Shown piece by piece: positions 1,181 to 37,095 of a stretch of DNA of 64,000 nt (positions within the stretch are counted from its first letter, which is position 1; every line of letters begins with the position of its first letter). Under the pieces are notes generated by a model. It was not told the origin of the DNA and did no database searches. It saw only the letters and a list, made by a program, of their open reading frames with translations. Location: the IMG/VR virus record IMGVR_UViG_2795385649_000011; one strand, written 5' to 3'. A program made the translations under genes and the position numbers. Source of the DNA: a virus (lineage: Duplodnaviria; Heunggongvirae; Uroviricota; Caudoviricetes).

Positions 1181-1269
1181 GGAGGCGTGCCAGAGCGGCC
1201 GAATGGGACTCACTGCTAATGAGTTGTCCCCTTTACGGGGGACCGGAGGTTCAAATCCTCTCGCCTCCG
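1181..1269 (+). tRNA. tRNA-Ser (anticodon GCT), type II with long variable arm
   Basis: Acceptor GGAGGCG/CGCCTCC, D-arm AGCGGCCGAA, anticodon stem ACTCA/TGAGT with loop CTGCTAA, long variable arm, T-arm GGAGGTTCAAATCCTCT. Folded by hand. Confidence 0.85.
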
Positions 1270-1317
1270 CGTCGGTCTGCAGGCCAAACCTGTTGACCTG
1301 CAACAATTGAATAGTAA

Positions 1318-4437: not shown

Positions 4438-4737
4438 ATGATACGCATAGTCTTGGCGACTTTCGTCGCGTTCGCGGTGGTGGTCTCCTGCGCCGCCCCG
4501 GCGGCTGCCGACCCGGTGAACGATGCCGCGAATGATGTCGGTGGCGCGCTGTGCATCGCGATCAGCGGCGATCCAACTTTCAACGGCATCAACCGCATCG
4601 GGAATGCACTCCACGAGCGAGGGTTCAGCTACCCCGACGCGGGCCGCATTGTCCGGCTGTCCGTGGAGGCTTACTGCCCTTGGCAGCAGCCGCTTCTCGA
4701 CCTCTACGTGAAGTCGGCCCGCTGGAGGACCATATGA
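4438..4737 (+). CDS. Small secreted/membrane protein with signal peptide
   Basis: MIRIVLATFVAFAVVVSCAAPAAA hydrophobic N-terminus with an AXA cleavage motif. Confidence 0.45.
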   Translation: MIRIVLATFVAFAVVVSCAAPAAADPVNDAANDVGGALCIAISGDPTFNGINRIGNALHERGFSYPDAGRIVRLSVEAYCPWQQPLLDLYVKSARWRTI

Positions 4738-5306
4738 GCGAGCTATGGGTTGTTGACGTTGAGACAACCGGATTGGACCGCAACCGGCACCTGCCGGTGG
4801 AGGTCGCGGCGATCCACTTGAAGACGGGCCGCGAAATCCATTTCGTCCCATTCATTTCGGCGGAGGCATTGGGCTACGCGGACCCAGAGTCGATGCGTAT
4901 CAACCGGTACTACGAGCGTGCCCTCTACCGCGATCAGCTCACCGATACCGCGACGCTGAACTGCTACCAGGACTTGTTCGAACTGCTGGACGGGAAGACC
5001 CTCGGCGGTGCTAACCCGCGATTTGACGCGGACATGCTGATAGCCGGTTACGAGCACGTCTGGCGTGCGCAGACCCGGACGAAAGAGCCTTGGCGGTATC
5101 GGCTCTCGGACCTATCTGCCTACACCGCAGGTCTTTTCCAGATCGACCCCGCCGACCCACCCGGCCTTGCGAGGTGCTGCGAGCTGCTGGGTGTCACCAA
5201 CACCGCCGAACACACGGCGCTCGGCGACACGCGGGCCACCCGAGATTGCTTCCGCCGCGCGTACGAGCGCGACAAGAAGGGAATAGGAGCCGATCCCCAT
5301 GCCTGA
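4734..5306 (+). CDS. DnaQ-like 3'-5' exonuclease (DEDDh family)
   Basis: Exo I VDVETTGLD, Exo III HTALGDTRAT; ATG overlaps the upstream stop (ATGA). Confidence 0.7.
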   Translation: MSELWVVDVETTGLDRNRHLPVEVAAIHLKTGREIHFVPFISAEALGYADPESMRINRYYERALYRDQLTDTATLNCYQDLFELLDGKTLGGANPRFDADMLIAGYEHVWRAQTRTKEPWRYRLSDLSAYTAGLFQIDPADPPGLARCCELLGVTNTAEHTALGDTRATRDCFRRAYERDKKGIGADPHA

Positions 5307-5783: not shown

Positions 5784-6571
5784 GGGCGCAGTGCCGACTC
5801 TGCAAAAGGCCGGTTGTAGGTCATGGCCTCTGTGACACCCACCGGAAACGGCATGTCTACCGCCTGCGGGCTTACGGACGTTTCGACAACGGAAGGCACT
5901 CCGTAGACGAAGCCCGCGAACGGCTTGCACAACTTCAAGCCGCCGGTATCGGGACGCGGCAGATACGGAGCCTCACCGGGCTATCGCGCAGCACCATCAT
6001 GCGATTAGCTGCTGCCGAACGCCGCTGGATCGACCGCCGCACCCACGAACTAATCATGGGCCTCGCTGTACCCGCGTCCGCTGTCGATCTCGCAAGCGCA
6101 TCAGCACTCGTGGATTCGACGGGTTCAGTGCGTCGCCTCCGCGCCCTCGCCCGGATCGGGTACGGCGGCCCGCAGATCACGGCCAGTCTGGGGCTCTCAG
6201 ACCCAACCGCCCTCAGCGGCTTGTACTCCGGAAGAGCCAAGAACGTCACGGCGCAACGTGCGCAAGCGATAGCCGACCTGTTCAACAAGCTGCAAATGAC
6301 CGAAGGCCCGAGCCGTGTCGCCCGCCAGCGAGCAACCCAAAAGGGTTGGCCGCTACCTCTCCAGTGGGACGAAGACACCATCGATGACCCCGCCGTGCAG
6401 CCGATCTACGGCAGCAATTTCAGCACCGCCACAGAGCGGCTGGAAGAACTCCAAGACATGGGCGTCACCGATACCTATCAGCTCGCGCAGAGGCTCGACG
6501 TGAAGCCGGAATCCGTTGAACGGCAGCTGCAACGGATCAAGGCCGCGACGAGGAAGGAAGGCGCAGCGTGA
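5780..6571 (+). CDS. Hypothetical HTH-containing protein with N-terminal Cys/His cluster
   Basis: 263 aa; CRLCKRPVVGHGLCDTH zinc-finger-like; IRSLTGLSRSTIMRL HTH. Confidence 0.45.
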   Translation: MRAQCRLCKRPVVGHGLCDTHRKRHVYRLRAYGRFDNGRHSVDEARERLAQLQAAGIGTRQIRSLTGLSRSTIMRLAAAERRWIDRRTHELIMGLAVPASAVDLASASALVDSTGSVRRLRALARIGYGGPQITASLGLSDPTALSGLYSGRAKNVTAQRAQAIADLFNKLQMTEGPSRVARQRATQKGWPLPLQWDEDTIDDPAVQPIYGSNFSTATERLEELQDMGVTDTYQLAQRLDVKPESVERQLQRIKAATRKEGAA

Positions 6572-9359: not shown

Positions 9360-10247
9360 ATGTCCTGGGAATTTGTCACGTTCCTGATCTTCGGCCTCAT
9401 CGCCGTGGCCCTATGTGGCGGCGGCTTCGTCGCCCATCGAATCGACCGGGATGCCGAAGGCCCCTACGTTTCGCTCGTCGCCGGAGGTATTGCCCTCGTA
9501 GTCGCTGTCGTCGTCCTTTTGCTGGGCTGCTTCACTGTCGTCGGAACCCGAAAAGTCGGCATCGAAACCGTGTTCGGAAAGCCCTCCGGGGAAACACTTT
9601 CCAACGGGCTGCACTGGAAGAGGCCTTGGGCAACGGTCGATGAGATGGACGCCGCCGTCCAGATCGACAAGTACGAAGGGGACCACCGGATCAAGGTCAG
9701 ACTCGGTAACTCATCCACCGCCGATGCGGATGTGTCCGTGCGCTGGCAGATCAAACAGGATGCCGCCGATGAGCTGTACGTCCAGTACCGATCATTCGAC
9801 AACGTCCGAACCAACCTCATCACCAGGAACTTGCAGGTCGCGCTCAATGACGTGTTTTCCAAGCTGGACCCACTGGCGACCAAGTGGGCCAACGGCTTAC
9901 CGCTGGAGACATTCGCCAAGGAGACCTCCGAGAAGCTGCGGAAGCTTGTCGGTGAGCAGGTGGACATCCTCGACGTAGCCGTGCCCACCATCGACTACGA
10001 CGACGGCACCGAAGCTCGTATCAATGAGCTGAACGCGGAACGCGCGAACACCGCCAAGGCCGAGCAGGCGAAGAAGACGGCCACCGAACAGGCGGAAGCG
10101 AACCGCATCCTCGCCTCGTCTGTATCCAACGACCCCAACGTGATTGTTCAGAACTGCATCACCAAGGCACTCGATAAAGGCATGTCCCCGTGGGGCTGCT
10201 GGCCCGGTACTAGCGCTCTCGCCACGACCCCCGCCCCAACCAAATAA
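9360..10247 (+). CDS. SPFH / band-7 (prohibitin-HflK/C-like) membrane protein
   Basis: N-terminal TM segment, SPFH core, coiled-coil C-terminus (AKAEQAKKTATEQAEANRILA). Confidence 0.6.
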   Translation: MSWEFVTFLIFGLIAVALCGGGFVAHRIDRDAEGPYVSLVAGGIALVVAVVVLLLGCFTVVGTRKVGIETVFGKPSGETLSNGLHWKRPWATVDEMDAAVQIDKYEGDHRIKVRLGNSSTADADVSVRWQIKQDAADELYVQYRSFDNVRTNLITRNLQVALNDVFSKLDPLATKWANGLPLETFAKETSEKLRKLVGEQVDILDVAVPTIDYDDGTEARINELNAERANTAKAEQAKKTATEQAEANRILASSVSNDPNVIVQNCITKALDKGMSPWGCWPGTSALATTPAPTK

Positions 10248-14184: not shown

Positions 14185-14510
14185 GCGCCAACAACTGGAC
14201 TACCTGCTACGCCTGCCAGACCCGGCGCGCCGATGCTGATGACGAACGCATTGCCGAGCAGCGGAAGCTCATCGAAGACGCGTACGGACAGGTGTCACAG
14301 GAGGAATACGACAGCCTTCGCGGCCGCGTAGAGGCTGCAATCGCAGAGATCAAAGCGGCTCCGCTGGGCCGCACGTTCCGTGAGGACTACGAGATATATG
14401 GGGCTGAAACCGGTGTCGTGACAGTTAGTTACGGAGGTAGCTGCACCGTATGCGGCTACGGGACATCGTTCGAGGATCAGCATCCCATTCCGGTGAAGGC
14501 GGGTAAGTGA
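14181..14510 (+). CDS. Hypothetical protein
   Basis: GTG 14181; Cys pairs CYACQ...CTVCGYG. Confidence 0.35.
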   Translation: MSANNWTTCYACQTRRADADDERIAEQRKLIEDAYGQVSQEEYDSLRGRVEAAIAEIKAAPLGRTFREDYEIYGAETGVVTVSYGGSCTVCGYGTSFEDQHPIPVKAGK

Positions 14511-15475
14511 TGGGTGACAAGACAGGCATAGAGTGGGCCGACTCGACCTGGAACCCAATTACGGGTTGCGACAAGGTATCTCCAGGTTGTGACCACTGCT
14601 ATGCGGAGACGTTTGCCGAGCGCTGGCGAGGGACCGAGGGGCATTACTTCGAGCACGGGTTCGATGTTCAGTTGCGCCCCGACAAGCTCGCGTTGCCGCT
14701 GCGCTGGACCAAGCCGCGCAAGGTGTTCGTCAACTCGATGTCAGATCTGTTCCACGAAAAGGTGTCTGACGAGTACATAGCTCGCGTGTTCTCTGTCATG
14801 GCGTGCGCCGAGCGGCACACATTTCAACTCCTGACCAAGCGGCATGGGCGCATGCGGTCGCTGCTGAACTCAGAAGCATTCCGCGAGTTGGTATTCAAGT
14901 GCCAAGCGCTGGAGTTACCGGGCGATGTGATGGGCGACTACTGGCCGCTGCCCAACGTCTGGTTGGGAGTGAGCGCCGAGGACCAGAAGCGCGCCGACCT
15001 CCGCATCCCAGCACTGCTCGACACCCCCGCCGCCGTCCGGTTCATCAGTGCTGAGCCACTGCTCGGACCGATCGACCTCTCCCGGTTCGTGGAGGACGAT
15101 GGCGAGAAGTTCGACCTTCCGCCACTGAGTTGGGTGATCGTGGGCGGCGAATCCGGCCCCGGCGCAAGGCCGATGCACCCCGACTGGGCGCGATCGTTGC
15201 GCGACCAGTGCGTCGCGGCCGGTGTGCCATTCCTGTTCAAACAGTGGGGCGAGTGGGCACCCAACCAACATCCCCCGCTCCGTGCATGCGTCTGTGACTG
15301 GTACGACGGACGGGAGGCTGACATCTGCCGAAATGATCCTTGCCGCAAGCTGTCCAAGCCGCCGTATGTAGATGATCCACGAGCACAGATGCAACGTGTC
15401 GGCAAGAAGCGCGCCGGGCGTGAGCTGGACGGGCGCACGTGGGACCAGTACCCCGAGAAGGCGGTAGCCCAATGA
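14507..15475 (+). CDS. Phage Gp37/Gp68-family protein
   Basis: 322 aa with the characteristic N-terminus KTGIEWADSTWNPITGCDKVSPGCDHCYAE and conserved GESGPGARPMHPDW. Confidence 0.6.
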   Translation: MMGDKTGIEWADSTWNPITGCDKVSPGCDHCYAETFAERWRGTEGHYFEHGFDVQLRPDKLALPLRWTKPRKVFVNSMSDLFHEKVSDEYIARVFSVMACAERHTFQLLTKRHGRMRSLLNSEAFRELVFKCQALELPGDVMGDYWPLPNVWLGVSAEDQKRADLRIPALLDTPAAVRFISAEPLLGPIDLSRFVEDDGEKFDLPPLSWVIVGGESGPGARPMHPDWARSLRDQCVAAGVPFLFKQWGEWAPNQHPPLRACVCDWYDGREADICRNDPCRKLSKPPYVDDPRAQMQRVGKKRAGRELDGRTWDQYPEKAVAQ

Positions 15476-25646: not shown

Positions 25647-26392
25647 CCGTAGAATTCGATGCTGTGAACGGGCCAACCAACGCGTCTCCCGTCTGGGCGA
25701 GAGAGTCGTTCGTGAACGCGTTCTGGGTCGCGACCGGCGAATCACCCGAATGGATCGCGGCGCGCACCGATGCGCTGCTGACGCAGCTAGGAACGGATCT
25801 GGGAATCGCGCAGTGGGACATCCCGAAGGGGCACCACTGGGAGACTTGGGCTGGGCCCAGCGAGGCATTGGCCGACATCGTTCGGAGCTGCCCGGTGCGC
25901 GAAGCACTCCCTGACGGCGCCAGCGGCGATGCTCTCCCCAGGGAGGGGTACTCGATCGTCCTGAAGGGCGTCGGTCCTGCCATCACTGCCAAGGTCTTCA
26001 TCGGTGCGGGGTCTATCGGTCTCGGCGGGAGACTGCCGGCGCACAACCTCCACATCGACCTGACCGAGACCGCGCCGGGCGGCGTCTCTAGCGAGGTTGG
26101 CGACAAGGTGTGCGCCGCTGTGGCTTCAACCTGGCAGCCCGCCACTTTCACCCTCACTGATCTTGCGGCAATGCGCCTTGCTCGGCGCAACAATTGGAAG
26201 ATCGGTGCCGGATACCGCACCTGGATCAGCAAGGAAGTCGGCGAGATTGACCATCTCGTTGACCTTCTCACAAAGACCGAGCTGGCCGGGGGCACCCTGA
26301 TCTCCGCGCCCGACGACTGGCCCGCTACGCGCGTCGTGGAGGCGGTCACCGCGACCCTCCGCGAGAACGGCCTAGACGAAGTACCTCACTGA
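25643..26392 (+). CDS. Hypothetical protein, candidate immunity protein to the upstream toxin-like gene
   Basis: 249 aa ORF, ATGA-coupled to the toxin-like gene and last gene before the non-coding RNA block. The immunity role is inferred from position only. Confidence 0.45.
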   Translation: MTVEFDAVNGPTNASPVWARESFVNAFWVATGESPEWIAARTDALLTQLGTDLGIAQWDIPKGHHWETWAGPSEALADIVRSCPVREALPDGASGDALPREGYSIVLKGVGPAITAKVFIGAGSIGLGGRLPAHNLHIDLTETAPGGVSSEVGDKVCAAVASTWQPATFTLTDLAAMRLARRNNWKIGAGYRTWISKEVGEIDHLVDLLTKTELAGGTLISAPDDWPATRVVEAVTATLRENGLDEVPH

Positions 26393-26550
26393 GCTGGCAC
26401 CGATATTCGGTAGCCAGGTCGAGGGCCTCGACGGCATACTTTCCCCGGTACGGGAGTCACCTTCCAGCGAATCAACATTTCCTCAAAAAATATGCCCTGA
26501 ACAGGCATTACTGAGGTATAGTTCTTGGCGTAGTCAACAAAAACATGGAT

Positions 26551-26722
26551 GGCGTGAGCAGGACGCGAGTCGGTTATCTGAAAATCATCAGATCGCGGGT
26601 TCGAATCCCGCCGGGCTGCTTGAAAGAGCTTCGGGCTTTCATCGGGCGGAACGTGGCAGAGCGGCCGAATGCATTGATCCAAGATCAACGCCGGTAAGCA
26701 CCTCACACGCCCACGCCATCCC
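26551..26722 (+). ncRNA. YrlA-like Y RNA copy 1 (Ro60-binding stem plus an enlarged tRNA-like module containing a type-II tRNA-like D-arm)
   Basis: 5' GGCGTGAGCAGGACGCGAGTCGGTTATC pairs with 3' CCGGTAAGCACCTCACACGCCCACGCC. Internal T-arm GCGGGTTCGAATCCCGC and D-arm-like GTGGCAGAGCGGCCGAATGC, which matches tRNA-Ser at 1181. Confidence 0.5.
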
Positions 26723-26739
26723 GGATACAACTTCACATT

Positions 26740-26878
26740 GATGATGCGAGCAGGACGCAGGTCGGTTACCACTTCTAATGGAGAGGTCGCGGGTTCGAGT
26801 CCCGTCAGCCGCGAAAGTGGTTGTAGCTCAGTCGGTAGAGCGCTTACCCCCGGTCAGCACACACACGCCCGCATCATC
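26740..26878 (+). ncRNA. YrlA-like Y RNA copy 2 (best-formed copy)
   Basis: Terminal stem GATGATGCG/CGCATCATC plus GAGCAGGACGCAGGTCGGTTACC vs CCGGTCAGCACACACACGCCCG; T-arm GCGGGTTCGAGTCCCGT; 7-bp acceptor-like stem CAGCCGC/GTGGTTG closed by GAAA; D-arm TAGCTCAGTCGGTAGAGCG. Confidence 0.6.
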
Positions 26879-26896
26879 CCCAAGGCTTCGTAGTAG

Positions 26897-27044
26897 ATGG
26901 TGTGAGCAGGACGCAGGATCGGTTATCGCATCTGGAGCGGGTGGTCGCTGGTTCAAATCCAGCTGCGGGCGCGTAGTGCGTCCGTATAGCTCAGCTTGGT
27001 AGAGCACCTAAAACACCGGTCAGCAATCACACGCCCGCACCACC
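26897..27044 (+). ncRNA. YrlA-like Y RNA copy 3
   Basis: GATGGTGTGAGCAGGACGCAGGATCGGTTATC vs CCGGTCAGCAATCACACGCCCGCACCACC; T-arm GCTGGTTCAAATCCAGC; acceptor-like stem CGGGCGC/GCGTCCG closed by GTAGT; D-arm TAGCTCAGCTTGGTAGAGCA. Confidence 0.55.
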
Positions 27045-27076
27045 TACGCGAATCATCAATAACTCCATAGCTTTTC

Positions 27077-27202
27077 GATGTGAGCAGGACGCTCGGTCGG
27101 TTATCACTCAATTGGTAATGCAGGTTCGACCCCTGTCGCTCGCGCCTCGGTGCGGGTGTAAAAGCGAAATCCCGGTCAGCACATACACGCCCACATCACC
27201 CC
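27077..27202 (+). ncRNA. YrlA-like Y RNA copy 4 (degenerate tRNA-like module)
   Basis: GATGTGAGCAGGACGCTCGGTCGGTTATC vs CCGGTCAGCACATACACGCCCACATCACC; T-arm GCAGGTTCGACCCCTGT; GC-rich stem CGCTCGCGC/GTGCGGGTG closed by CTCG; no clear D-arm. Confidence 0.45.
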
Positions 27203-27216
27203 GAACCCCCTTTTGG

Positions 27217-27294
27217 CGCGAGCAGGACGACGGTCGGTTACCCCAACCTCGAAACTGGATGAACCCCGGCGGTCACTCACACGCCCGCGCCACC
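27217..27294 (+). ncRNA. Minimal Y RNA-like hairpin copy 5 (Ro-binding stem only, no tRNA-like module)
   Basis: GGCGCGAGCAGGACGACGGTCGGTTACC pairs with CCGGCGGTCACTCACACGCCCGCGCC across a 23-nt loop; it ends 22 nt before the rsr start. Confidence 0.45.
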
Positions 27295-27315
27295 TAACCC
27301 AGCAAGGAGCTCACG

Positions 27316-29016
27316 GTGGACGTTCTATCCTCGATCAGCACGCGGCGCACCCCTCAGGCCCAGAAGGCGGACCCGCGCCAGGTCAAGAACGCCGCCGGGG
27401 GCTACACCTTCCAGGCCGACGACTGGACCCGGCTCCACCGATTCCTGACCCTCGGCACGACCGGCGGCACCTACTACACCTCCGCCGAGGACCTCACCCG
27501 CGACGCCGCCGATGTCGTGATCCGGCTCGCCGCAACCGATCCCGTCACCCTCGTGCAGAAGATCGTTGAGGTCTCCGAGGCCGGACGCGCCCCCAAGCAG
27601 AACCCGGCCCTGTTCGCGCTCGCTATCGCTTCGGCCTCCGAGAACGTGGAAGGCCGCCGTGCCGCCGCCGCCGCACTGCCCCGAGTCGCGCGCACCGCCA
27701 CCCACCTGTACCTGTTCACCAAGTACATGGAGCAGTTCCGGGGCTGGGGACCGGCGATGAAGCGCGCCGTCTCCAGCTGGTACCTGGACAAGCCCGTGGA
27801 CCGGCTCGCCTACCAGCTGGTCAAGTACCGGCAGCGTGACGGCTGGACCCACCGCGACATGCTCCGGCTCAGCGGCCCCGCCACCAGCGACCCCGCACGC
27901 CGCATGGCGTTCAACTGGGCTGTCGGCAAGGGGCTCAACGACTACAACTGGAAGCAGCCGCTCCTCACTCCGGAGCAGCTCAAGGCCGGAGAGCGCAACC
28001 CCGCTCTACCGAAGCTGCCCAATGTGGAACTGGCTGACGGGCACCCGCTTGCCATCATCGCGGACTACGAAGCCGCGCAGCGTGCCACCACCGTCAACGA
28101 GTGGCTGGCGATCATCCGCCGGGGCAACGGCCTACCGTGGGAGGCGTTCCCCGACAAGGCCCTCACCGAGCCTGCGATCTGGGAGGCGCTGATCGAGCAC
28201 GGCCTCCCGCAGACCGCCCTCATGCGGCAGCTGCCCCGCCTAACCCGCCTCGGCGTGCTGAACGGTCAGCTCGGCAGCCGGGTCTCCGCGCAGCTCCAGG
28301 ACACAGACCGGCTACGAAAGGGCCGCGTCCACCCGATCAATGTCCTTGTCGCACAGCGCACCTATGCCTCTGGGCGTTCTGCGCGCGGTGAGTCCACCTG
28401 GACTCCGAACCGCCGCATCGTTGACGCGCTCGACGCCGCGTTCTACAACGCCTACGGCGCCGTCGAGCCCTCGGGTAAGCGGACCCTGCTGGCACTGGAC
28501 ATCTCCGGCTCCATGAGCGCCGCGATCTCCGGTATGCCGCTGACGTGCCGCGAGGCCGCCGCCGCGCTCGCACTGGTGACCGCCAACGTGGAGCCCAACC
28601 ACGACATCATCGGGTTCACCGCCGGGGCCGGTGGGAGCTTCCGCTCATCAGGGATCACGGAGTTGGACATCACGCCGCGCCGCCGCCTCGATGACGTGTG
28701 CCGATACACCGCAGGCCTCCCTATGGGCGCTACCGACTGCGCGCTCCCCATGATCTGGGCGAAGGCGCAGCTTCGCCCCTACGACGCCATCGTGATCCTC
28801 ACCGACAACGAGACCTGGTACGGGGGTATCCACCCGCACCAGGCTCTCACCGAGTACCGGAACAAGCTCAGCCTGGACACCAGCCTGATGGTGGTCGCGA
28901 TGACCGGCGGTCGGCAGACCATCGCAGATCCTTCGGACCCGCGCCAGCTCGACGTGTCCGGGTTCGATAGCGCTGTACCGCAGCTCATCTCGGACTTCGC
29001 CCGAGGTGACCTGTAA
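27316..29016 (+). CDS. rsr: Ro60 ortholog Rsr: TROVE-domain RNA-binding protein with C-terminal vWA (MIDAS) domain
   Basis: 566 aa; N-terminal TROVE-like region; C-terminal vWA with MIDAS motif LLALDISGSMS...T...TD; AAGGAG RBS before the GTG start. Directly downstream of the five Y RNA-like genes. Confidence 0.7.
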   Translation: MDVLSSISTRRTPQAQKADPRQVKNAAGGYTFQADDWTRLHRFLTLGTTGGTYYTSAEDLTRDAADVVIRLAATDPVTLVQKIVEVSEAGRAPKQNPALFALAIASASENVEGRRAAAAALPRVARTATHLYLFTKYMEQFRGWGPAMKRAVSSWYLDKPVDRLAYQLVKYRQRDGWTHRDMLRLSGPATSDPARRMAFNWAVGKGLNDYNWKQPLLTPEQLKAGERNPALPKLPNVELADGHPLAIIADYEAAQRATTVNEWLAIIRRGNGLPWEAFPDKALTEPAIWEALIEHGLPQTALMRQLPRLTRLGVLNGQLGSRVSAQLQDTDRLRKGRVHPINVLVAQRTYASGRSARGESTWTPNRRIVDALDAAFYNAYGAVEPSGKRTLLALDISGSMSAAISGMPLTCREAAAALALVTANVEPNHDIIGFTAGAGGSFRSSGITELDITPRRRLDDVCRYTAGLPMGATDCALPMIWAKAQLRPYDAIVILTDNETWYGGIHPHQALTEYRNKLSLDTSLMVVAMTGGRQTIADPSDPRQLDVSGFDSAVPQLISDFARGDL

Positions 29017-29018
29017 CG

Positions 29019-29453
29019 ATGGGCAGGGTCGGCGGCCCCGCGCCGCGCCCCTGCGCGTCGTGCCCCTACCGGGAGGACGTACCCAGCGGCGTGTGGCATG
29101 CCACCGAGTATCAGAAACTCATCGCCTACGACGGCCCCACCTCGGAGCAGCCGCCCGGCCTGTTCCTGTGCCACCAGACGGACGCCGCCGACGCAGCGGC
29201 CCGGCTTTGTGCGGGCTGGGTCGGCTGCCACGGCGGCGAGGAACTACTTGCGATACGCATCGGCGCGGCCACGGGCGCGCTGTCTCCCGAAGACGTACAG
29301 GCCGCATTCGAATATGTGAGCCCTGTCCCGCTGTTCGAGTCAGGCCGTGACGCAGCAGAGCACGGCATCTTCGAGATCGAAGACCCCGGAGAGGAAGCCA
29401 TCACCGCGATCGAGAAGATATCCCGCCGCCGCGTGGACATCAGGGGACGTTGA
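29019..29453 (+). CDS. Hypothetical Cys-rich protein downstream of rsr
   Basis: 144 aa; CASCPYREDVPSG...CHQTDAADAAARLCAGWVGCHGG. Confidence 0.4.
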   Translation: MGRVGGPAPRPCASCPYREDVPSGVWHATEYQKLIAYDGPTSEQPPGLFLCHQTDAADAAARLCAGWVGCHGGEELLAIRIGAATGALSPEDVQAAFEYVSPVPLFESGRDAAEHGIFEIEDPGEEAITAIEKISRRRVDIRGR

Positions 29454-29671: not shown

Positions 29672-29838
29672 GTAGCGGCCCTTTCCATATCGTGAACCGG
29701 CTCAACGGGAAGCACGTTGGCCCGTTCACGACTGAAACGGACTGCGCGCTAGCGAAAACCATTGCTACACCGGACTGGACAACGGGAATTGTCATGGACA
29801 AGAAGCAATTCAAGAAGCACTTGGAGCGTGGACTGTGA
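29668..29838 (+). CDS. Hypothetical small protein (56 aa)
   Basis: ATG 29668, stop 29836-38 overlapping the next GTG start. Confidence 0.3.
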   Translation: MSSGPFHIVNRLNGKHVGPFTTETDCALAKTIATPDWTTGIVMDKKQFKKHLERGL

Positions 29839-30692
29839 GTACAGAAGCACGCCACGGCACGGAGCGGCACCGCGCTATCGCGGACGAGAACACGATTCTT
29901 CGTGGGCAGGTCGGCTCCGGCCTGCATGGTGTCACGACCGGCGCCGACGACCGCGACGAAATGGGCATCTGCATCGAACCTCCCGAGGCCGTAATCGGTT
30001 TGGAGAAGTTCGAGCAGTACATGTACCGCACCCAACCGGACGGCGCCCGCTCCGGCCCCGGCGACCTCGATCTGTGTGTCTACAGCCTGCGGAAGTGGAC
30101 ACGGCTGGCCGCCAATGGCAATCCCTCAGTGCTGCTGATGCTTTGGATACCCGACAATGAGCTGACGGTGAAAAGCCAACTCGGCGCCGAACTTCAGGCA
30201 GCCTCGGAGATGTTCGTCACCACGCAGGCTGGACAGAAGTTCTTGAGCTACTTGAACTCTCAGCGTGAAGGACTCGAAGGTACCCATCACCGGCACACCA
30301 ACCGGCCCGAACTCATCGAACAGTACGGTTTCGACACCAAGTACGCGTATCACGCCCTGCGCCTCGGCATGCAGGGTATCCAGCTCGTCACGGAGAGGAA
30401 GCTGCACCTGCCGATGGTCAAGGCCCATCGTGATGCGCTGCTCCGCGTTCGGCGCGGCGAGACCTCGCTCCCCGAGGTGAAGAGCTGGCTCGCGGATCTG
30501 ACCTGGAGTCTGGAGCACTTCATCTCGACCGAGCCTCTGCCGGATACCCCGGACTGGGTTCGGATCAACACGTGGTTGGTTGATATGTACCAGCGGCACT
30601 GGCGTACTCGCGGTACCAGGTCCGAAGCCCGACTCTCCGGCGCGATCCGAAACGCACACAACATCGCCGTCAGTCGAAGTAGATGGCGATGA
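29835..30692 (+). CDS. Pol-beta-superfamily nucleotidyltransferase with helical C-terminal domain
   Basis: N-terminal NTase motif GQVGSGLHGVTTGADDRDEMGI (GS...[DE]x[DE]); 285 aa. Confidence 0.55.
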   Translation: MSTEARHGTERHRAIADENTILRGQVGSGLHGVTTGADDRDEMGICIEPPEAVIGLEKFEQYMYRTQPDGARSGPGDLDLCVYSLRKWTRLAANGNPSVLLMLWIPDNELTVKSQLGAELQAASEMFVTTQAGQKFLSYLNSQREGLEGTHHRHTNRPELIEQYGFDTKYAYHALRLGMQGIQLVTERKLHLPMVKAHRDALLRVRRGETSLPEVKSWLADLTWSLEHFISTEPLPDTPDWVRINTWLVDMYQRHWRTRGTRSEARLSGAIRNAHNIAVSRSRWR

Positions 30693-36188: not shown

Positions 36189-36685
36189 CCGGTCCGGGTC
36201 TCGCTGTCCCGCAGTCGTTCACGGTCATGTACGACACGTGGGCGGGCGTCGCAGACCGCAACACCGACCTGGATAACGAGCCCGACATCCGCCCCATCAC
36301 GGCCACGGTCCTGTTCCGGTACCGGCTCCCGCAGGGCTGGGCGTTCCGGGCCGCGAACTACGACCCCCGCCCAACGGACTTCGCCCTCGACACGTTTGAG
36401 GGGCGCCTCGATGAAGGCCGCCTCCGCCACCCCAACGGCACTCTCGGGATGAAGCTGTTCGCCAACACCGCGCTCCTCGCGTGGCCGGCAGACCTCTTCA
36501 TCGACATCAGCTTCTCGAACGTGGTGTTCAACCGGGGGGACCGTACCTGGCGGAACTTCGCGATCATCGCGCCCGTGACCGCCGGTACCGAGGTGAATCT
36601 GACCACGGTGCAGCGCTACCCGTTCCTCACCCAGACCCAGTACGAGCAGTGGTTCCAGAACAACCCGGCGCCGAACCCGGTCTGA
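36185..36685 (+). CDS. Hypothetical protein
   Basis: 166 aa ORF. Confidence 0.4.
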   Translation: MTGPGLAVPQSFTVMYDTWAGVADRNTDLDNEPDIRPITATVLFRYRLPQGWAFRAANYDPRPTDFALDTFEGRLDEGRLRHPNGTLGMKLFANTALLAWPADLFIDISFSNVVFNRGDRTWRNFAIIAPVTAGTEVNLTTVQRYPFLTQTQYEQWFQNNPAPNPV

Positions 36686-36756
36686 CCCTCACTCGCCGAC
36701 TCTGGCTCCCCAGCGACGAAACCCAGCCCACACCCAGCAGCACAGGAGAACCCAGC

Positions 36757-37095
36757 ATGAGTCACGCCACCCCAAGCAGCCGTGCAGACATCGACCAACG
36801 CTTCAACTACCACCTTTCCGGCGAGGACCGGGTGGTCACGCTCGACTACGTCCGGGGGCAATGCGCCCACATCGCCCACTGCCTTGATGAGGTGCTGCCG
36901 CCCGGTCGAGAGAAGTCCCTCGCGTTGACGAAGCTGGAGGAGGCCCTGATGTGGTCCAACGCCTCCATCGCGAAGACCGCCCCCCAGCCGGTTGGCACAG
37001 TCAGATCCGGGGTCATCGGCTTCATCCCTGCCACCGAGGCTGAACTGATTGATGATTCGGGCTCGATCAACACTGCAGCAGGGCCATCCGCATGA
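36757..37095 (+). CDS. Hypothetical protein
   Basis: ATG 36757 in frame with track ORF 36481..37095. Confidence 0.4.
   Translation: MSHATPSSRADIDQRFNYHLSGEDRVVTLDYVRGQCAHIAHCLDEVLPPGREKSLALTKLEEALMWSNASIAKTAPQPVGTVRSGVIGFIPATEAELIDDSGSINTAAGPSA

What the first reader, a model, noticed from the sequence alone, without database searches (positions are those of the whole stretch)
26400..27315. Five tandem Y RNA (YrlA-like) genes with permuted tRNA-like modules that look at first like broken tRNA genes
The block has four good T-arms (GGTTCGAATCC type) and several tRNA D-arms, but no canonical cloverleaf can be closed. The pieces are in permuted order, flanked by two conserved motifs repeated five times each. 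Motif B is GAGCAGGACGCNGGTCGGTTATC and motif A is CCGGTCAGCANACACACGCCCGCANCACC. In every unit B pairs with the following A to form a long imperfect stem (copy 2 ends with GATGATGCG/CGCATCATC). The stem encloses a T-arm, then a 7-bp acceptor-like stem closed by a short loop (CAGCCGC-GAAA-GTGGTTG in copy 2; CGGGCGC-GTAGT-GCGTCCG in copy 3), then a D-arm. This is the architecture reported for bacterial YrlA-type Y RNAs, where a Ro60-binding stem replaces the anticodon stem of a tRNA mimic. The array ends 22 nt before an Rsr/Ro60 gene. Five divergent paralogs in tandem, with modules ranging from elaborate to absent, is unusual.
Basis: partly seen in the sequence, partly recalled or inferred. Interest (0 to 1): 0.9.

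Follow-up and report, generated by a model that had tools for sequence, protein, structure and literature searches.

The report
Five tandem phage Y RNA genes
Just upstream of a phage Ro60 (Rsr) gene lie five tandem genes for Y RNAs, small RNAs that bind Ro60; three carry a circularly rearranged tRNA look-alike. This is a larger copy of a known arrangement, not a new kind of element.

Summary
The observation and the interpretation both hold. Window 26547-27294 (+) holds five tandem units, each closed by a covarying terminal stem and an inner helix.

- A covariance model built only from Y RNAs of other loci, including the experimentally validated M. smegmatis YrlA, finds exactly these five in 64 kb (55-135 bits, E 7e-13 to 4e-34).
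- Units 1-3 have the YrlA layout: V region, T arm, closed acceptor-like hairpin, D arm.
- Unit 4 resembles M. smegmatis YrlB (T arm plus hairpin, no D arm).
- Unit 5 is a bare Y stem.
- The array ends 21 nt before a complete Ro60 gene, which is followed by DUF6283 and an RlaP RNA-repair nucleotidyltransferase.

The kind is known: Chen et al. 2014 reported YrlA next to Ro60 in 254 bacteria and 22 phages. "Unusual" is only partly right.
- In 80 actinobacterial chromosomal Rsr loci the same model finds 0-4 units, most often 2, never 5.
- The five-unit array recurs at 86-94% identity in related viral contigs.
- M. abscessus prophages carry 6-7 unannotated units.

What looks new: an elbow that differs between units (unit 1 has a class-II-type D arm), replacement of whole tRNA-like modules between close relatives, and fast structure-preserving change in the acceptor hairpins. 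Expression and Rsr binding are untested.

The parts
26476..26545 (+). Conserved leader and candidate promoter/operator of the array: palindrome ATGCCCTGAACAGGCAT at 26492-26508, -10-like TATAGT at 26517-26522
   Evidence: This stretch is 93-97% identical in five array variants, while the sequence just upstream (26400-26475) falls to 70-83% in most of them (alignment). The strict sigma-70 consensus scan finds no promoter; it reports only the palindrome, as a minus-strand terminator-like site. The promoter role is inferred, not shown.
26547..26721 (+). Y RNA unit 1: YrlA-like with a class-II-tRNA-type elbow
   Evidence: R1 hit 26549-26720, 72.0 bits, E 2.6e-17. Sub-features:
- terminal stem GGATGGCGTG-A-GC (26547-26559) paired with GC-C-CACGCCATCC (to 26721)
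- V hairpin 26576-26593
- T arm 26595-26611
- long irregular acceptor-like hairpin 26612-26653
- D arm 26654-26673, with a 3-bp stem. GUGGCAGAGCGGCCGAAUGC is about 18 of 21 identical to the D arm of the tRNA-Ser at 1181.
- extra hairpin 26674-26688

MFE z-score -3.15. The tRNA-like fold is 11.5 kcal/mol above the MFE.
26740..26878 (+). Y RNA unit 2: closest homolog of M. smegmatis YrlA
   Evidence: R1 gives 134.7 bits, E 4.3e-34. Rfam YrlA gives 34.2 bits, E 1.8e-5 on 26782-26844. It is 80% identical to M. smegmatis YrlA.

The MFE fold itself shows the expected parts, z -2.35:
- terminal stem
- V hairpin 26768-26787
- T arm 26789-26805
- 7-bp acceptor-like stem CAGCCGC/GTGGTTG with GAAA loop, 26806-26823
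- D arm 26824-26842
26896..27044 (+). Y RNA unit 3: YrlA type
   Evidence: R1 gives 96.4 bits, E 7.5e-24. Rfam YrlA gives a full-length match at 26919-27033, 37.9 bits, E 1.6e-6. Sub-features:
- V region 26928-26946
- T arm 26947-26963
- 9-bp acceptor-like hairpin 26964-26986
- D arm 26987-27006

The tRNA-like module at this position is replaced by a different one in L016 and L017.
27077..27200 (+). Y RNA unit 4: YrlB-like (T arm plus hairpin, no D arm)
   Evidence: R1 gives 69.2 bits, E 1.5e-16, with the D arm deleted in the alignment. The T arm is at 27120-27136 and a 9-bp hairpin at 27137-27158. M. smegmatis YrlB has the same layout. An ortholog is present in the M. abscessus prophages.
27214..27294 (+). 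Y RNA unit 5: minimal Y RNA with stem, internal loop, inner helix and a roughly 25-nt apical region, no tRNA-like part
   Evidence: R1 gives 55.4 bits, E 7.4e-13, with 58 model positions (the whole tRNA-like domain) deleted. The fold is (z -1.69). Orthologs occupy the last position of the arrays in the M. abscessus prophages, and Sparky has a similar unit.
27304..27309 (+). Shine-Dalgarno AAGGAG of rsr
   Evidence: Read directly from the sequence. It lies 6 nt before the GTG start and is conserved in all array variants.
27316..29016 (+). rsr: Ro60 ortholog, 566 aa
   Evidence: Pfam TROVE 6.8e-50 and vWA_Ro60 3.5e-56. It is 67% identical to M. smegmatis Rsr (P0020) and 77% to M. abscessus prophage Ro.
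29019..29453 (+). DUF6283 protein immediately downstream of rsr (context)
   Evidence: Pfam DUF6283 6.3e-38. The same neighbour is present in L043.
29835..30692 (+). RlaP-family nucleotidyltransferase (context: RNA repair)
   Evidence: Pfam RlaP 2.3e-35 and PHROG 388 nucleotidyltransferase 3.1e-64. The same gene order is seen in L043. RlaP adds 1-2 nt to the 3'-OH of damaged RNAs (PMC12776372).

Best explanation
The block is a polycistronic array of five Y RNA genes belonging to the rsr (Ro60) operon of a temperate mycobacteriophage-like element.

Shown by computation:
- Each unit has a covarying terminal stem, then a conserved internal loop (5' CAGGACG, 3' A/C-rich CACAC), then a covarying inner helix. 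This is the same Rsr-binding stem as in M. smegmatis YrlA and YrlB.
- Units 1-3 carry a tRNA-like domain in permuted order: V region, T arm, closed acceptor-like hairpin, D arm.
- Unit 4 keeps only the T arm and a hairpin.
- Unit 5 has no tRNA-like part.

Inferred from the M. smegmatis precedent and from the 13-32 nt spacers with no terminator:
- One transcript starts near 26530 and runs through the five units into rsr.
- The units are cut out of it and stabilised by binding phage Rsr on the conserved stem.
- The 7-bp acceptor-like stem of unit 2 (and of unit 3) is a likely RNase P substrate, as in M. smegmatis YrlA.

Inferred function: each Y RNA gates Rsr or tethers it to a partner. The tRNA-shaped modules are docking sites for tRNA-binding proteins or nucleases such as PNPase, RNase P, the CCA enzyme, or the RlaP encoded three genes downstream. 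On this reading the phage brings its own RNA quality-control or repair particle, with several alternative adaptors.
For: Sequence and motifs:
- Motifs, arms and coordinates are, and the motifs are far above chance.
- Homology to validated Y RNAs comes from the probe sequences in PMC4201824, the M. smegmatis locus and 80% identity of unit 2 to YrlA.

Model searches:
- The independent covariance model R1 finds exactly five hits in the window, E 4e-34 to 7e-13; the next best hit is E 0.08.
- Rfam YrlA matches units 3 and 2 at E 1.6e-6 and 1.8e-5. The validated M. smegmatis YrlA is also below the gathering score, 45.1 against 69 bits.

Covariation:
- Terminal stem: 81.6% paired against 24-45% when slid, 52 double-change cells, 0 of 500 shuffles.
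- Inner helix: it forms in every unit with swapped sequences.
- Whole YrlA fold: 95.8% paired, 20 of 32 pairs compensatory, 0 of 500 shuffles on all five measures.
- The invariant U-G and frequent G-U pairs in the inner helix only work on the + strand RNA.

Context:
- A full Ro60 gene follows 21 nt downstream on the same strand, then DUF6283 and RlaP.
- The Y stems are 96-99% identical between array variants, more conserved than the rsr CDS at 91-95%. The acceptor-like hairpins are only 78-84% identical but stay paired.
- The array is conserved in at least five other contigs.
- M. smegmatis YrlA and YrlB are processed from one precursor upstream of rsr and bind Rsr (PMC4201824).
Against: - There is no expression, processing or binding data for this element. 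Everything beyond sequence and structure is inferred.
- No match reaches Rfam's gathering score.
- No canonical sigma-70 promoter was found.
- MFE z-scores are modest, -1.0 to -3.2.
- For unit 1 the tRNA-like fold is 11.5 kcal/mol above the MFE.
- The published GNCGAAN0-1G motif is matched only with one mismatch.
- No RNA ligase gene was found nearby, so the RNA-repair context rests on RlaP alone.
- The partner of any YrlA tRNA-like domain is unknown even in the model organisms (10.1101/312249).
Confidence: 0.85

Rival explanations
1. The repeats are a structured 5' leader of the rsr mRNA, for example an autoregulatory Rsr-binding or attenuator element. They act in cis and are not stable trans-acting small RNAs.
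For: - The array sits directly in front of the rsr ribosome-binding site with no terminator between.
- It is probably co-transcribed with rsr.
- Rsr-binding stems placed before the rsr start could titrate or recruit Rsr to its own message.
Against: - The homologous M. smegmatis units are released from the precursor as discrete Rsr-bound RNAs (PMC4201824).
- Each unit is a self-contained closed stem with its own covarying ends.
- Unit number varies from 1 to 7 between loci without change to the rsr start region.
- A cis role and a trans role are not mutually exclusive.
Confidence: 0.07
2. The block is a decayed cluster of tRNA genes, either tandem or dimeric tRNA remnants or permuted tRNA genes that are spliced into real tRNAs. 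It has no Ro60-related role.
For: - T arms, D arms and acceptor-like stems are of tRNA type.
- Related phages carry true tRNA clusters next to Ro.
- YrlA is thought to descend from dimeric tRNA transcripts (10.1101/312249).
- ARAGORN even calls a tRNA-Thr on the 5' half of one homologous unit.
Against: - There is no anticodon arm in tRNA register and no tRNA call in the window region.
- The most conserved parts are the non-tRNA Y stems, 96-99% identical. These are shared with Rsr-bound RNAs of M. smegmatis.
- Compensatory changes show selection on the whole fold, which decay would not preserve.
- Units 4 and 5 lack most or all tRNA parts yet keep the stem.
Confidence: 0.03
3. The repeats act at the DNA level, as iterons or binding sites for a replication, partition or regulatory protein.
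For: Five direct repeats of about 25-30 bp motifs lie at 138-192 bp spacing in an intergenic region of a phage.
Against: - The substitutions are compensatory across positions 60-170 nt apart.
- G-U and U-G pairs are tolerated on the + strand only.
- The motifs are tied to rsr in chromosomes and phages alike.
Confidence: 0.02

Closest known systems
Mycobacterium smegmatis YrlA and YrlB (Chen et al. 2014, RNA 20:1715; PMC4201824)
   Same: - Same position and strand, immediately upstream of rsr.
- Same 5' and 3' stem motifs: GAGCMGGACG...CGGTTAYC and CCGG...CACACGCCC.
- Unit 2 is 80% identical to YrlA, with the same V hairpin, T arm, 7-bp closed acceptor stem and D arm.
- Unit 4 has the YrlB layout.
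   Different: - Five units here instead of two.
- Two extra YrlA-type paralogs with different T, acceptor-like and D sequences. One of them has a class-II-type D arm, a long acceptor-like hairpin and an extra hairpin.
- A minimal unit with no tRNA-like part.
- Phage-borne, and followed by DUF6283 and RlaP.
Unannotated Y RNA arrays of M. abscessus prophages prophiT37-1 and prophiGD43A-5 (OQ417969, MW584167)
   Same: - Closest relatives in GenBank: 72% identity over units 2-5 plus Ro.
- Same design: several YrlA-type units, then a YrlB-like unit, then a minimal unit, then Ro.
   Different: - They have six units; related IMG/VR contigs have seven.
- Their YrlA modules differ.
- No RlaP lies downstream.
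- The region is unannotated except for a spurious tRNA-Thr.
Salmonella Typhimurium YrlA/YrlB (Rfam RF02553; structure in Wang et al. 2018, bioRxiv 10.1101/312249)
   Same: - Ro60-binding stem in place of the anticodon stem.
- tRNA-like L-shaped domain with T arm, closed acceptor stem and D arm.
- Variable acceptor-like, anticodon-equivalent and V regions.
   Different: - The Salmonella genes sit in the rsr-yrlBA-rtcBA operon under RtcR control.
- Sequence similarity is limited to the tRNA-like core; the Rfam score is about half the gathering score.
- That work stresses near-invariant T and D stems, whereas the units here differ from one another in both.
Y RNA-like RNAs of other Ro-encoding phages: Thermus phage phiLo Yrl1/Yrl2 (PMC12135203), mycobacteriophage Sparky, Streptomyces phage Faust
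   Same: Y RNA-like genes lie directly upstream of a phage Ro60 gene.
   Different: - Those phages have one or two units, often beside true tRNA clusters.
- The phiLo RNAs have no described tRNA-like domain.
Circularly permuted tRNA genes of red algae and some archaea
   Same: The T arm precedes the D arm, the acceptor stem is closed by a loop, and the 5' and 3' ends pair.
   Different: There is no anticodon loop and no splicing motif. The paired ends form a long conserved Ro-binding stem rather than an anticodon stem that is to be ligated.

Membership tests
YrlA-type bacterial Y RNA (Chen et al. 2014; Rfam RF02553) | Encoded within about 4 kb of a Ro60 (TROVE) gene, on the same strand | tested here: met
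   The array at 26547-27294 (+) ends 21 nt before rsr at 27316-29016 (+). Pfam TROVE and vWA_Ro60 both match.
YrlA-type bacterial Y RNA (Chen et al. 2014; Rfam RF02553) | The 5' and 3' ends pair into a long interrupted stem that carries the Ro60-binding module | tested here: met
   All five units have it. Covariation of the terminal stem is, the inner helix, and the whole-fold counts.
YrlA-type bacterial Y RNA (Chen et al. 2014; Rfam RF02553) | GNCGAAN0-1G motif on the 5' strand | tested here: inconclusive
   The units read GACGCGAG, GACGCAGG (twice), GACGCUCG and GACGACGG, each one mismatch from the motif. The validated M. smegmatis YrlA reads GACGUCGA / GUCGAUCG and is not an exact match either. 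The invariant core in this clade is CAGGACG / CCGGACG.
YrlA-type bacterial Y RNA (Chen et al. 2014; Rfam RF02553) | Conserved YUAY that begins the V region | tested here: met
   UUAU or UUAC directly follows the inner helix in all five units. GGTTA is invariant in 34 stems.
YrlA-type bacterial Y RNA (Chen et al. 2014; Rfam RF02553) | T stem-loop, then closed acceptor-like stem-loop, then D stem-loop, in that order | tested here: met
   Met for units 1-3. Unit 4 has the T arm and a hairpin but no D arm. Unit 5 has none, so those two are Y RNAs but not YrlA in the strict sense.
YrlA-type bacterial Y RNA (Chen et al. 2014; Rfam RF02553) | tRNA tertiary-contact nucleotides (U8, A14, G18-G19, U54-U55-C56, R57, A58, 15:48 Levitt pair) | tested here: met
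   By inspection of the aligned sequences:
- Unit 2 reads UA-GCUC-AGUCGGUA-GAGC, T loop UUCGAGU, C before the T stem.
- Unit 3 reads UA-GCUC-AGCUUGGUA-GAGC, T loop UUCAAAU, C before the T stem.
- Unit 1 has the class-II pattern UG-GCA-GAGCGGCCGAA-UGC, T loop UUCGAAU.
No 3D test was done.
YrlA-type bacterial Y RNA (Chen et al. 2014; Rfam RF02553) | Score at or above the Rfam gathering threshold (69 bits) | tested here: not met
   The best scores are 37.9 and 34.2 bits. This threshold also excludes the experimentally validated M. smegmatis YrlA at 45.1 bits. It therefore measures distance from the proteobacterial seed, not non-membership.
YrlA-type bacterial Y RNA (Chen et al. 2014; Rfam RF02553) | [quoted passage not shown] | not testable with these tools
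   Needs RIP or Northern blots, modification mapping and RNase P assays.
M. smegmatis YrlB-type Y RNA | Same Rsr-binding stem as YrlA, a T arm but no D arm, located between YrlA and rsr | tested here: met
   Met for unit 4. R1 aligns it with the D arm deleted.
Canonical tRNA gene | Cloverleaf in 5'-acceptor, D, anticodon, T, acceptor-3' order with a 7-nt anticodon loop | tested here: not met
   ARAGORN and Rfam tRNA at gathering score find only the two tRNAs at 1181-1391. The sub-threshold tRNA hit (25.3 bits) needs a 46-nt insertion.
Circularly permuted tRNA gene | The permuted halves rejoin into a tRNA with an anticodon loop | tested here: not met
   The paired ends form a stem of more than 20 bp with no anticodon loop. 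Rejoining the halves with a synthetic anticodon arm does give an ARAGORN call, but that test proved non-discriminating.

The most novel reading that the evidence does not exclude
The array is a diversifying repertoire of tRNA mimics. Each Rsr-bound unit would present a different tRNA-like elbow and acceptor: class-II Ser-like in unit 1, class-I types in units 2 and 3, T arm only in unit 4, none in unit 5.

Whole modules are exchanged between close relatives, at the unit-3 position in L016, L017 and L030. The acceptor hairpins evolve faster than the neighbouring rsr gene while staying paired.

On this reading, temperate mycobacteriophages use Rsr, this adaptor set and RlaP to intercept or repair damage from tRNA-targeting host or rival-phage nucleases. 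The expansion to 5-7 units would reflect an arms race, not redundancy.
Probability: 0.2. Interest if true: 0.7.

Novelty: new member of a known kind. Interest (0 to 1): 0.4.

Why it matters
What YrlA tRNA-like domains bind is still unknown. Published work stresses near-invariant T and D stems and expects a single elbow-recognising partner.

These phage arrays place up to five to seven Rsr-binding RNAs with different elbows, acceptor hairpins and even no tRNA part under one promoter, next to one Rsr. Natural module swaps also occur between 90%-identical relatives. That makes a ready comparative and genetic system:
- delete or swap units in a mycobacterial lysogen;
- ask which partners such as PNPase, RNase P, the CCA enzyme or RlaP co-purify with each unit;
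- ask which RNA-damage phenotypes depend on each unit.

There is also a practical gain. The roughly 0.8-1.4 kb 'empty' gaps upstream of Ro in mycobacterial prophage records can be annotated, and one spurious tRNA-Thr removed.

Tried and rejected
- **Rfam at gathering thresholds:** nothing in the region. The E-value mode and a calibration on the validated M. smegmatis YrlA showed that the threshold is simply too strict for this clade.
- **Un-permuting the tRNA-like modules:** I added a synthetic anticodon arm and ran ARAGORN, which called a tRNA for units 1-3. With shuffled acceptor strands or a shuffled D region it still called one in 48-78% of trials. I do not count this test as evidence.
- **MFE folding alone:** it reproduces the expected fold only for unit 2. 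z-scores are modest, and for unit 1 the MFE disrupts the T arm.
- **First genome-contig scan with the single Rsr protein:** no hits. The alignment-based scan worked.
- **Pattern scan of viral contigs:** about 20 single-match loci carry no Y RNA by R1 and are chance hits.
- **Consensus promoter scan:** found none.
- **RNA ligase, RtcB or Pnkp gene near rsr:** looked for with Pfam and PHROGs and not found.
- **Overlapping ORFs in the array** (26778-27002, 27112-27297, and 26386-26772 on the minus strand): rejected as genes. Relatives differ by 1-nt indels inside them, and the homologous gap is left without CDS in GenBank records.
- **Literature searches** in the held library found no description of 5-7-unit arrays in mycobacterial prophages. 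The supplementary tables of Chen et al. 2014 and the 2020 Annual Review were not available, so prior listing of multi-copy phage loci cannot be excluded.
Full report
**What is in the sequence**

Between the stop of an upstream ORF (26392) and a GTG-initiated 566-aa ORF (27316-29016) there is a non-coding stretch of about 920 nt. It holds five direct repeats of two motifs.
- GAGCAGGACG(N5-6)CGGTTAYC starts at 26556, 26748, 26904, 27082 and 27220.
- CCGG...CACACGCCCRC... ends each unit.

Fixed-spacing versions of either motif occur three times in the window against 0.04-0.05 expected, with 0 of 100 shuffles reaching 3. The other two copies differ only by a 1-nt spacing change. Four tRNA-type T arms and three D arms lie between the motifs. 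Neither ARAGORN nor the Rfam tRNA model calls a tRNA there. The only corrections concern where the array starts (about 26547) and the register of the acceptor-like stem in copy 3.

**The downstream gene**

The 566-aa ORF is a complete Ro60: Pfam TROVE 6.8e-50 and vWA_Ro60 3.5e-56. It is 67% identical to M. smegmatis Rsr and 77% to Ro proteins of M. abscessus prophages. It is followed by a DUF6283 protein and, three genes on, an RlaP-family nucleotidyltransferase. A related metagenomic contig has the same gene order. [quoted passage not shown] No RNA ligase was found nearby.

The window as a whole looks like a temperate siphovirus-type genome. Its closest relatives are prophiT37-1 and prophiGD43A-5, at 77% identity over a quarter of a 25-kb query.

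**Homology to validated Y RNAs**

Chen et al. [quoted passage not shown]
- YrlA is about 147 nt, has a tRNA-like domain with a 7-bp acceptor stem, is cleaved by RNase P and receives CCA in vivo.
- YrlB has a T arm only.

Their YrlA 3' probe is the complement of ...CCTCACACGCCCACATCACC..., which is motif A. Their 5' probe is the complement of TTACCACTTCTAATGGAATGGTC, which is almost the V region of unit 2. I fetched the M. smegmatis locus. YrlA and YrlB carry the same two motifs, and unit 2 is 80% identical to YrlA over 132 aligned positions.

**Covariance-model tests**

Rfam's YrlA model matches unit 3 end to end (37.9 bits, E 1.6e-6) and the tRNA-like core of unit 2 (34.2 bits, E 1.8e-5), both below the 69-bit gathering score. 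The validated M. smegmatis YrlA also reaches only 45.1 bits, so that threshold is not informative for mycobacterial members.

I built a model (R1) from eight Y RNAs that exclude this window's lineage: M. smegmatis YrlA, M. abscessus prophage units, two IMG/VR units and phage Sparky. Across the 64-kb window it finds exactly five hits, all on the + strand and contiguous.

| Hit | Bits | Unit |
|---|---|---|
| 26741-26878 | 134.7 | 2 |
| 26897-27044 | 96.4 | 3 |
| 26549-26720 | 72.0 | 1 |
| 27075-27200 | 69.2 | 4 |
| 27213-27294 | 55.4 | 5 |

E-values run from 4e-34 to 7e-13. The next best hit scores 14 bits (E 0.08).

**Structure and covariation**

For 34 distinct stems from the window, its relatives, the M. 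abscessus prophages and M. smegmatis, the terminal stem is 81.6% paired against 24-45% when the partner is slid. It has 52 double-change cells, and 0 of 500 shuffles reach the observed covariation. The A opposite C in GAGC/GCCC becomes A-U, G-C or G-U in some units (13 of the 34 stems form a standard pair there).

The inner helix forms in every unit with swapped sequences:
- GCAGGUCGG/CCGGUCAGC
- GUCGAUCGG/CCGGUUGAU
- UUCGUUCGG/CCGGACGAA
- GACGGUCGG/CCGGCGGUC

RNAalifold on 18 YrlA-type units recovers the terminal stem, inner helix, T arm, closed acceptor-like stem and D arm. On that structure 95.8% of cells pair, 20 of 32 pairs have compensatory changes, and 0 of 500 shuffles reach the observed value on all five measures. 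Slid controls give 33-48%. That structure was derived from the same alignment, which favours it against the slid controls. The pair-type counts are less affected by this. An invariant U-G and frequent G-U pairs in the inner helix fit only a + strand RNA.

**Anatomy of the five units** (coordinates)

- **Unit 2.** The MFE fold is exactly the YrlA layout.
- **Unit 3.** Same layout, with a 9-bp acceptor-like hairpin.
- **Unit 1.** The most elaborate unit. It has a 6-bp V hairpin and a long irregular acceptor-like hairpin that changes by compensatory substitutions and a 7-nt deletion among relatives. It has a D arm with a 3-bp stem and a class-II pattern, close to the D arm of the tRNA-Ser at 1181 in the same window. 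It also has an extra hairpin before the 3' strand. Rfam YrlA does not see unit 1 at all, and its tRNA-like fold is 11.5 kcal/mol above the MFE, so that part is less certain.
- **Unit 4.** It has a T arm and a 9-bp hairpin but no D arm, like YrlB.
- **Unit 5.** It is only stem, loop, helix and a short apical region.

**How unusual the array is**

The same five-unit array, 86-94% identical, occurs in at least five other contigs, and one further contig (L013) is identical to the window over the array. The M. abscessus prophages have six units and related contigs seven. All are unannotated in GenBank apart from a tRNA-Thr that ARAGORN calls on the 5' half of one unit. M. smegmatis, Sparky and Faust have two units each.

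In the 80 best-matching Rsr loci from actinobacterial species-representative genomes, R1 finds these counts of units upstream on the rsr strand:

| Units per locus | 0 | 1 | 2 | 3 | 4 | 5 or more |
|---|---|---|---|---|---|---|
| Number of loci | 4 | 12 | 39 | 19 | 6 | 0 |

Tandem Y RNAs are therefore the rule. Five is beyond the chromosomal range sampled but part of a continuum, and it is characteristic of a temperate-phage lineage. R1 may undercount in distant genera.

**Features that go beyond the published picture**

- Between array variants the Y stems are 96-99% identical, more than the rsr coding sequence at 91-95%. The acceptor-like hairpins are 78-84% identical yet remain paired.
- At the unit-3 position the module is replaced outright. 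L016 has a different V, T, acceptor-like and D set, of a type also found upstream of Ro in Streptomyces phage Faust. L017 and L030 have still other T, acceptor-like and D sets.
- The units of one array differ in their T and D stems. Work on Salmonella YrlA stressed extreme conservation of those stems and proposed a single elbow-reading partner.

**Mechanism**

Shown here: five closed, covarying Y-type stems, three of them enclosing tRNA-like domains, on the strand of a Ro60 gene and directly upstream of it.

Inferred from M. smegmatis and from the absence of terminators and the 13-32 nt spacers: one precursor is made from a start near 26530, downstream of a leader conserved in all variants (26476-26545, with a palindrome and a TATAGT box). 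It is processed into unit-sized RNAs, each bound by phage Rsr on the conserved loop and helix. RNase P may cleave at the 7-bp acceptor stems.

Inferred with less confidence: the tRNA-shaped parts recruit tRNA-binding enzymes, and the phage uses the set with Rsr and RlaP for RNA surveillance or repair during conflict with the host.

**Verdict**

The finding is real and correctly interpreted. It is a new, expanded member of the known YrlA/YrlB Y RNA class, already reported next to Ro60 in bacteria and phages. Its interest lies in copy number, unit heterogeneity and module exchange. No expression or binding data exist for it.

Noticed in passing
L002:5998-6076 (prophiGD43A-5, MW584167 26001-26079): The tRNA-Thr(tgt) annotated in GenBank, which ARAGORN reproduces, lies on the 5' half of a Y RNA unit (R1 hit 6002-6138, 136.5 bits). 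The V hairpin CCACTTGTAATGG is read as an anticodon arm. The near-identical prophiT37-1 gets no call, so this is probably a false tRNA.
   Followed up: yes
window 26768-26787; also M. smegmatis L042:3726-3745: The V hairpin of unit 2 sits exactly where an anticodon arm would sit relative to the T arm (a 5-nt AGGUC linker). It has a 7-nt loop CUUCUAA with U33-like and A37-like positions. This fits the proposed origin of YrlA from a dimeric tRNA transcript.
   Followed up: partly
L016:5362-5514(-), L017:8138-8293(-), L030 (unit at oriented positions 816-971 of the reverse complement), compared with window 26928-27015: The tRNA-like module at the unit-3 position is replaced by unrelated T, acceptor-like and D sequences in otherwise 90%-identical arrays. 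The L016 type (D arm GUGGUGUAACGGCAGCAC) recurs upstream of Ro in Streptomyces phages Faust and TunaTartare.
   Followed up: partly
window 26492-26522; L001:5803-5822; L045:2467-2487: Three different lineages have a palindrome overlapping or abutting a TAYAGY box just upstream of the first Y RNA unit. The sequences are ATGCCCTGAACAGGCAT...TATAGT, GCTATACCGCGGTATAGC and GCTGTACTGCGGTACAGT. This may be a shared operator/promoter design.
   Followed up: no
window 1181-1270 and 1318-1391: Two canonical tRNA genes, Ser(GCT) and Arg(ACG), lie at the start of the window. The D arm of the tRNA-Ser is nearly the same as the D arm of Y RNA unit 1.
   Followed up: partly
window 36481-37095 (+): A 204-aa ORF has an Acb2/Tad1 hairpin domain (Pfam 4.3e-16). 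It is a candidate anti-CBASS or anti-Thoeris nucleotide sponge.
   Followed up: no
window 9360-10247 (+); also 4551-5306 and 14507-15475: Three ORFs lie in the early region: an SPFH/Band_7 protein (1.3e-18), an RNase_T-family exonuclease (1.1e-11) and a DUF5131 protein (9e-104). Band-7 proteins have been linked to tRNA-like RNAs and RtcB in other bacteria, but no extra tRNA-like RNA was found near this one.
   Followed up: no
L042:3850-3958 (M. smegmatis YrlB): There is a weak Rfam match (24 bits, E 0.025, below gathering) to the nematode stem-bulge RNA family ceN72-3_ceN74-2. It aligns GGCCGG...GGUUAUC and the 3' strand. The window units gave no such hit.
   Followed up: no
L065, L067, L069, L076, L081, L087 (mostly Promicromonospora; L076 is an unnamed Actinomycetota MAG): Pairs of R1 hits lie on the strand opposite to rsr, about 1.5-2.9 kb upstream. 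In three of these loci there are also hits on the rsr strand. Y RNA genes are therefore not always co-oriented with rsr.
   Followed up: no
window 29019-29453 and L043:3028-3453: A DUF6283 protein directly follows rsr in both contigs of this lineage, ahead of RlaP. The M. abscessus prophages do not have it. Its link to Ro60 is unexplained.
   Followed up: no
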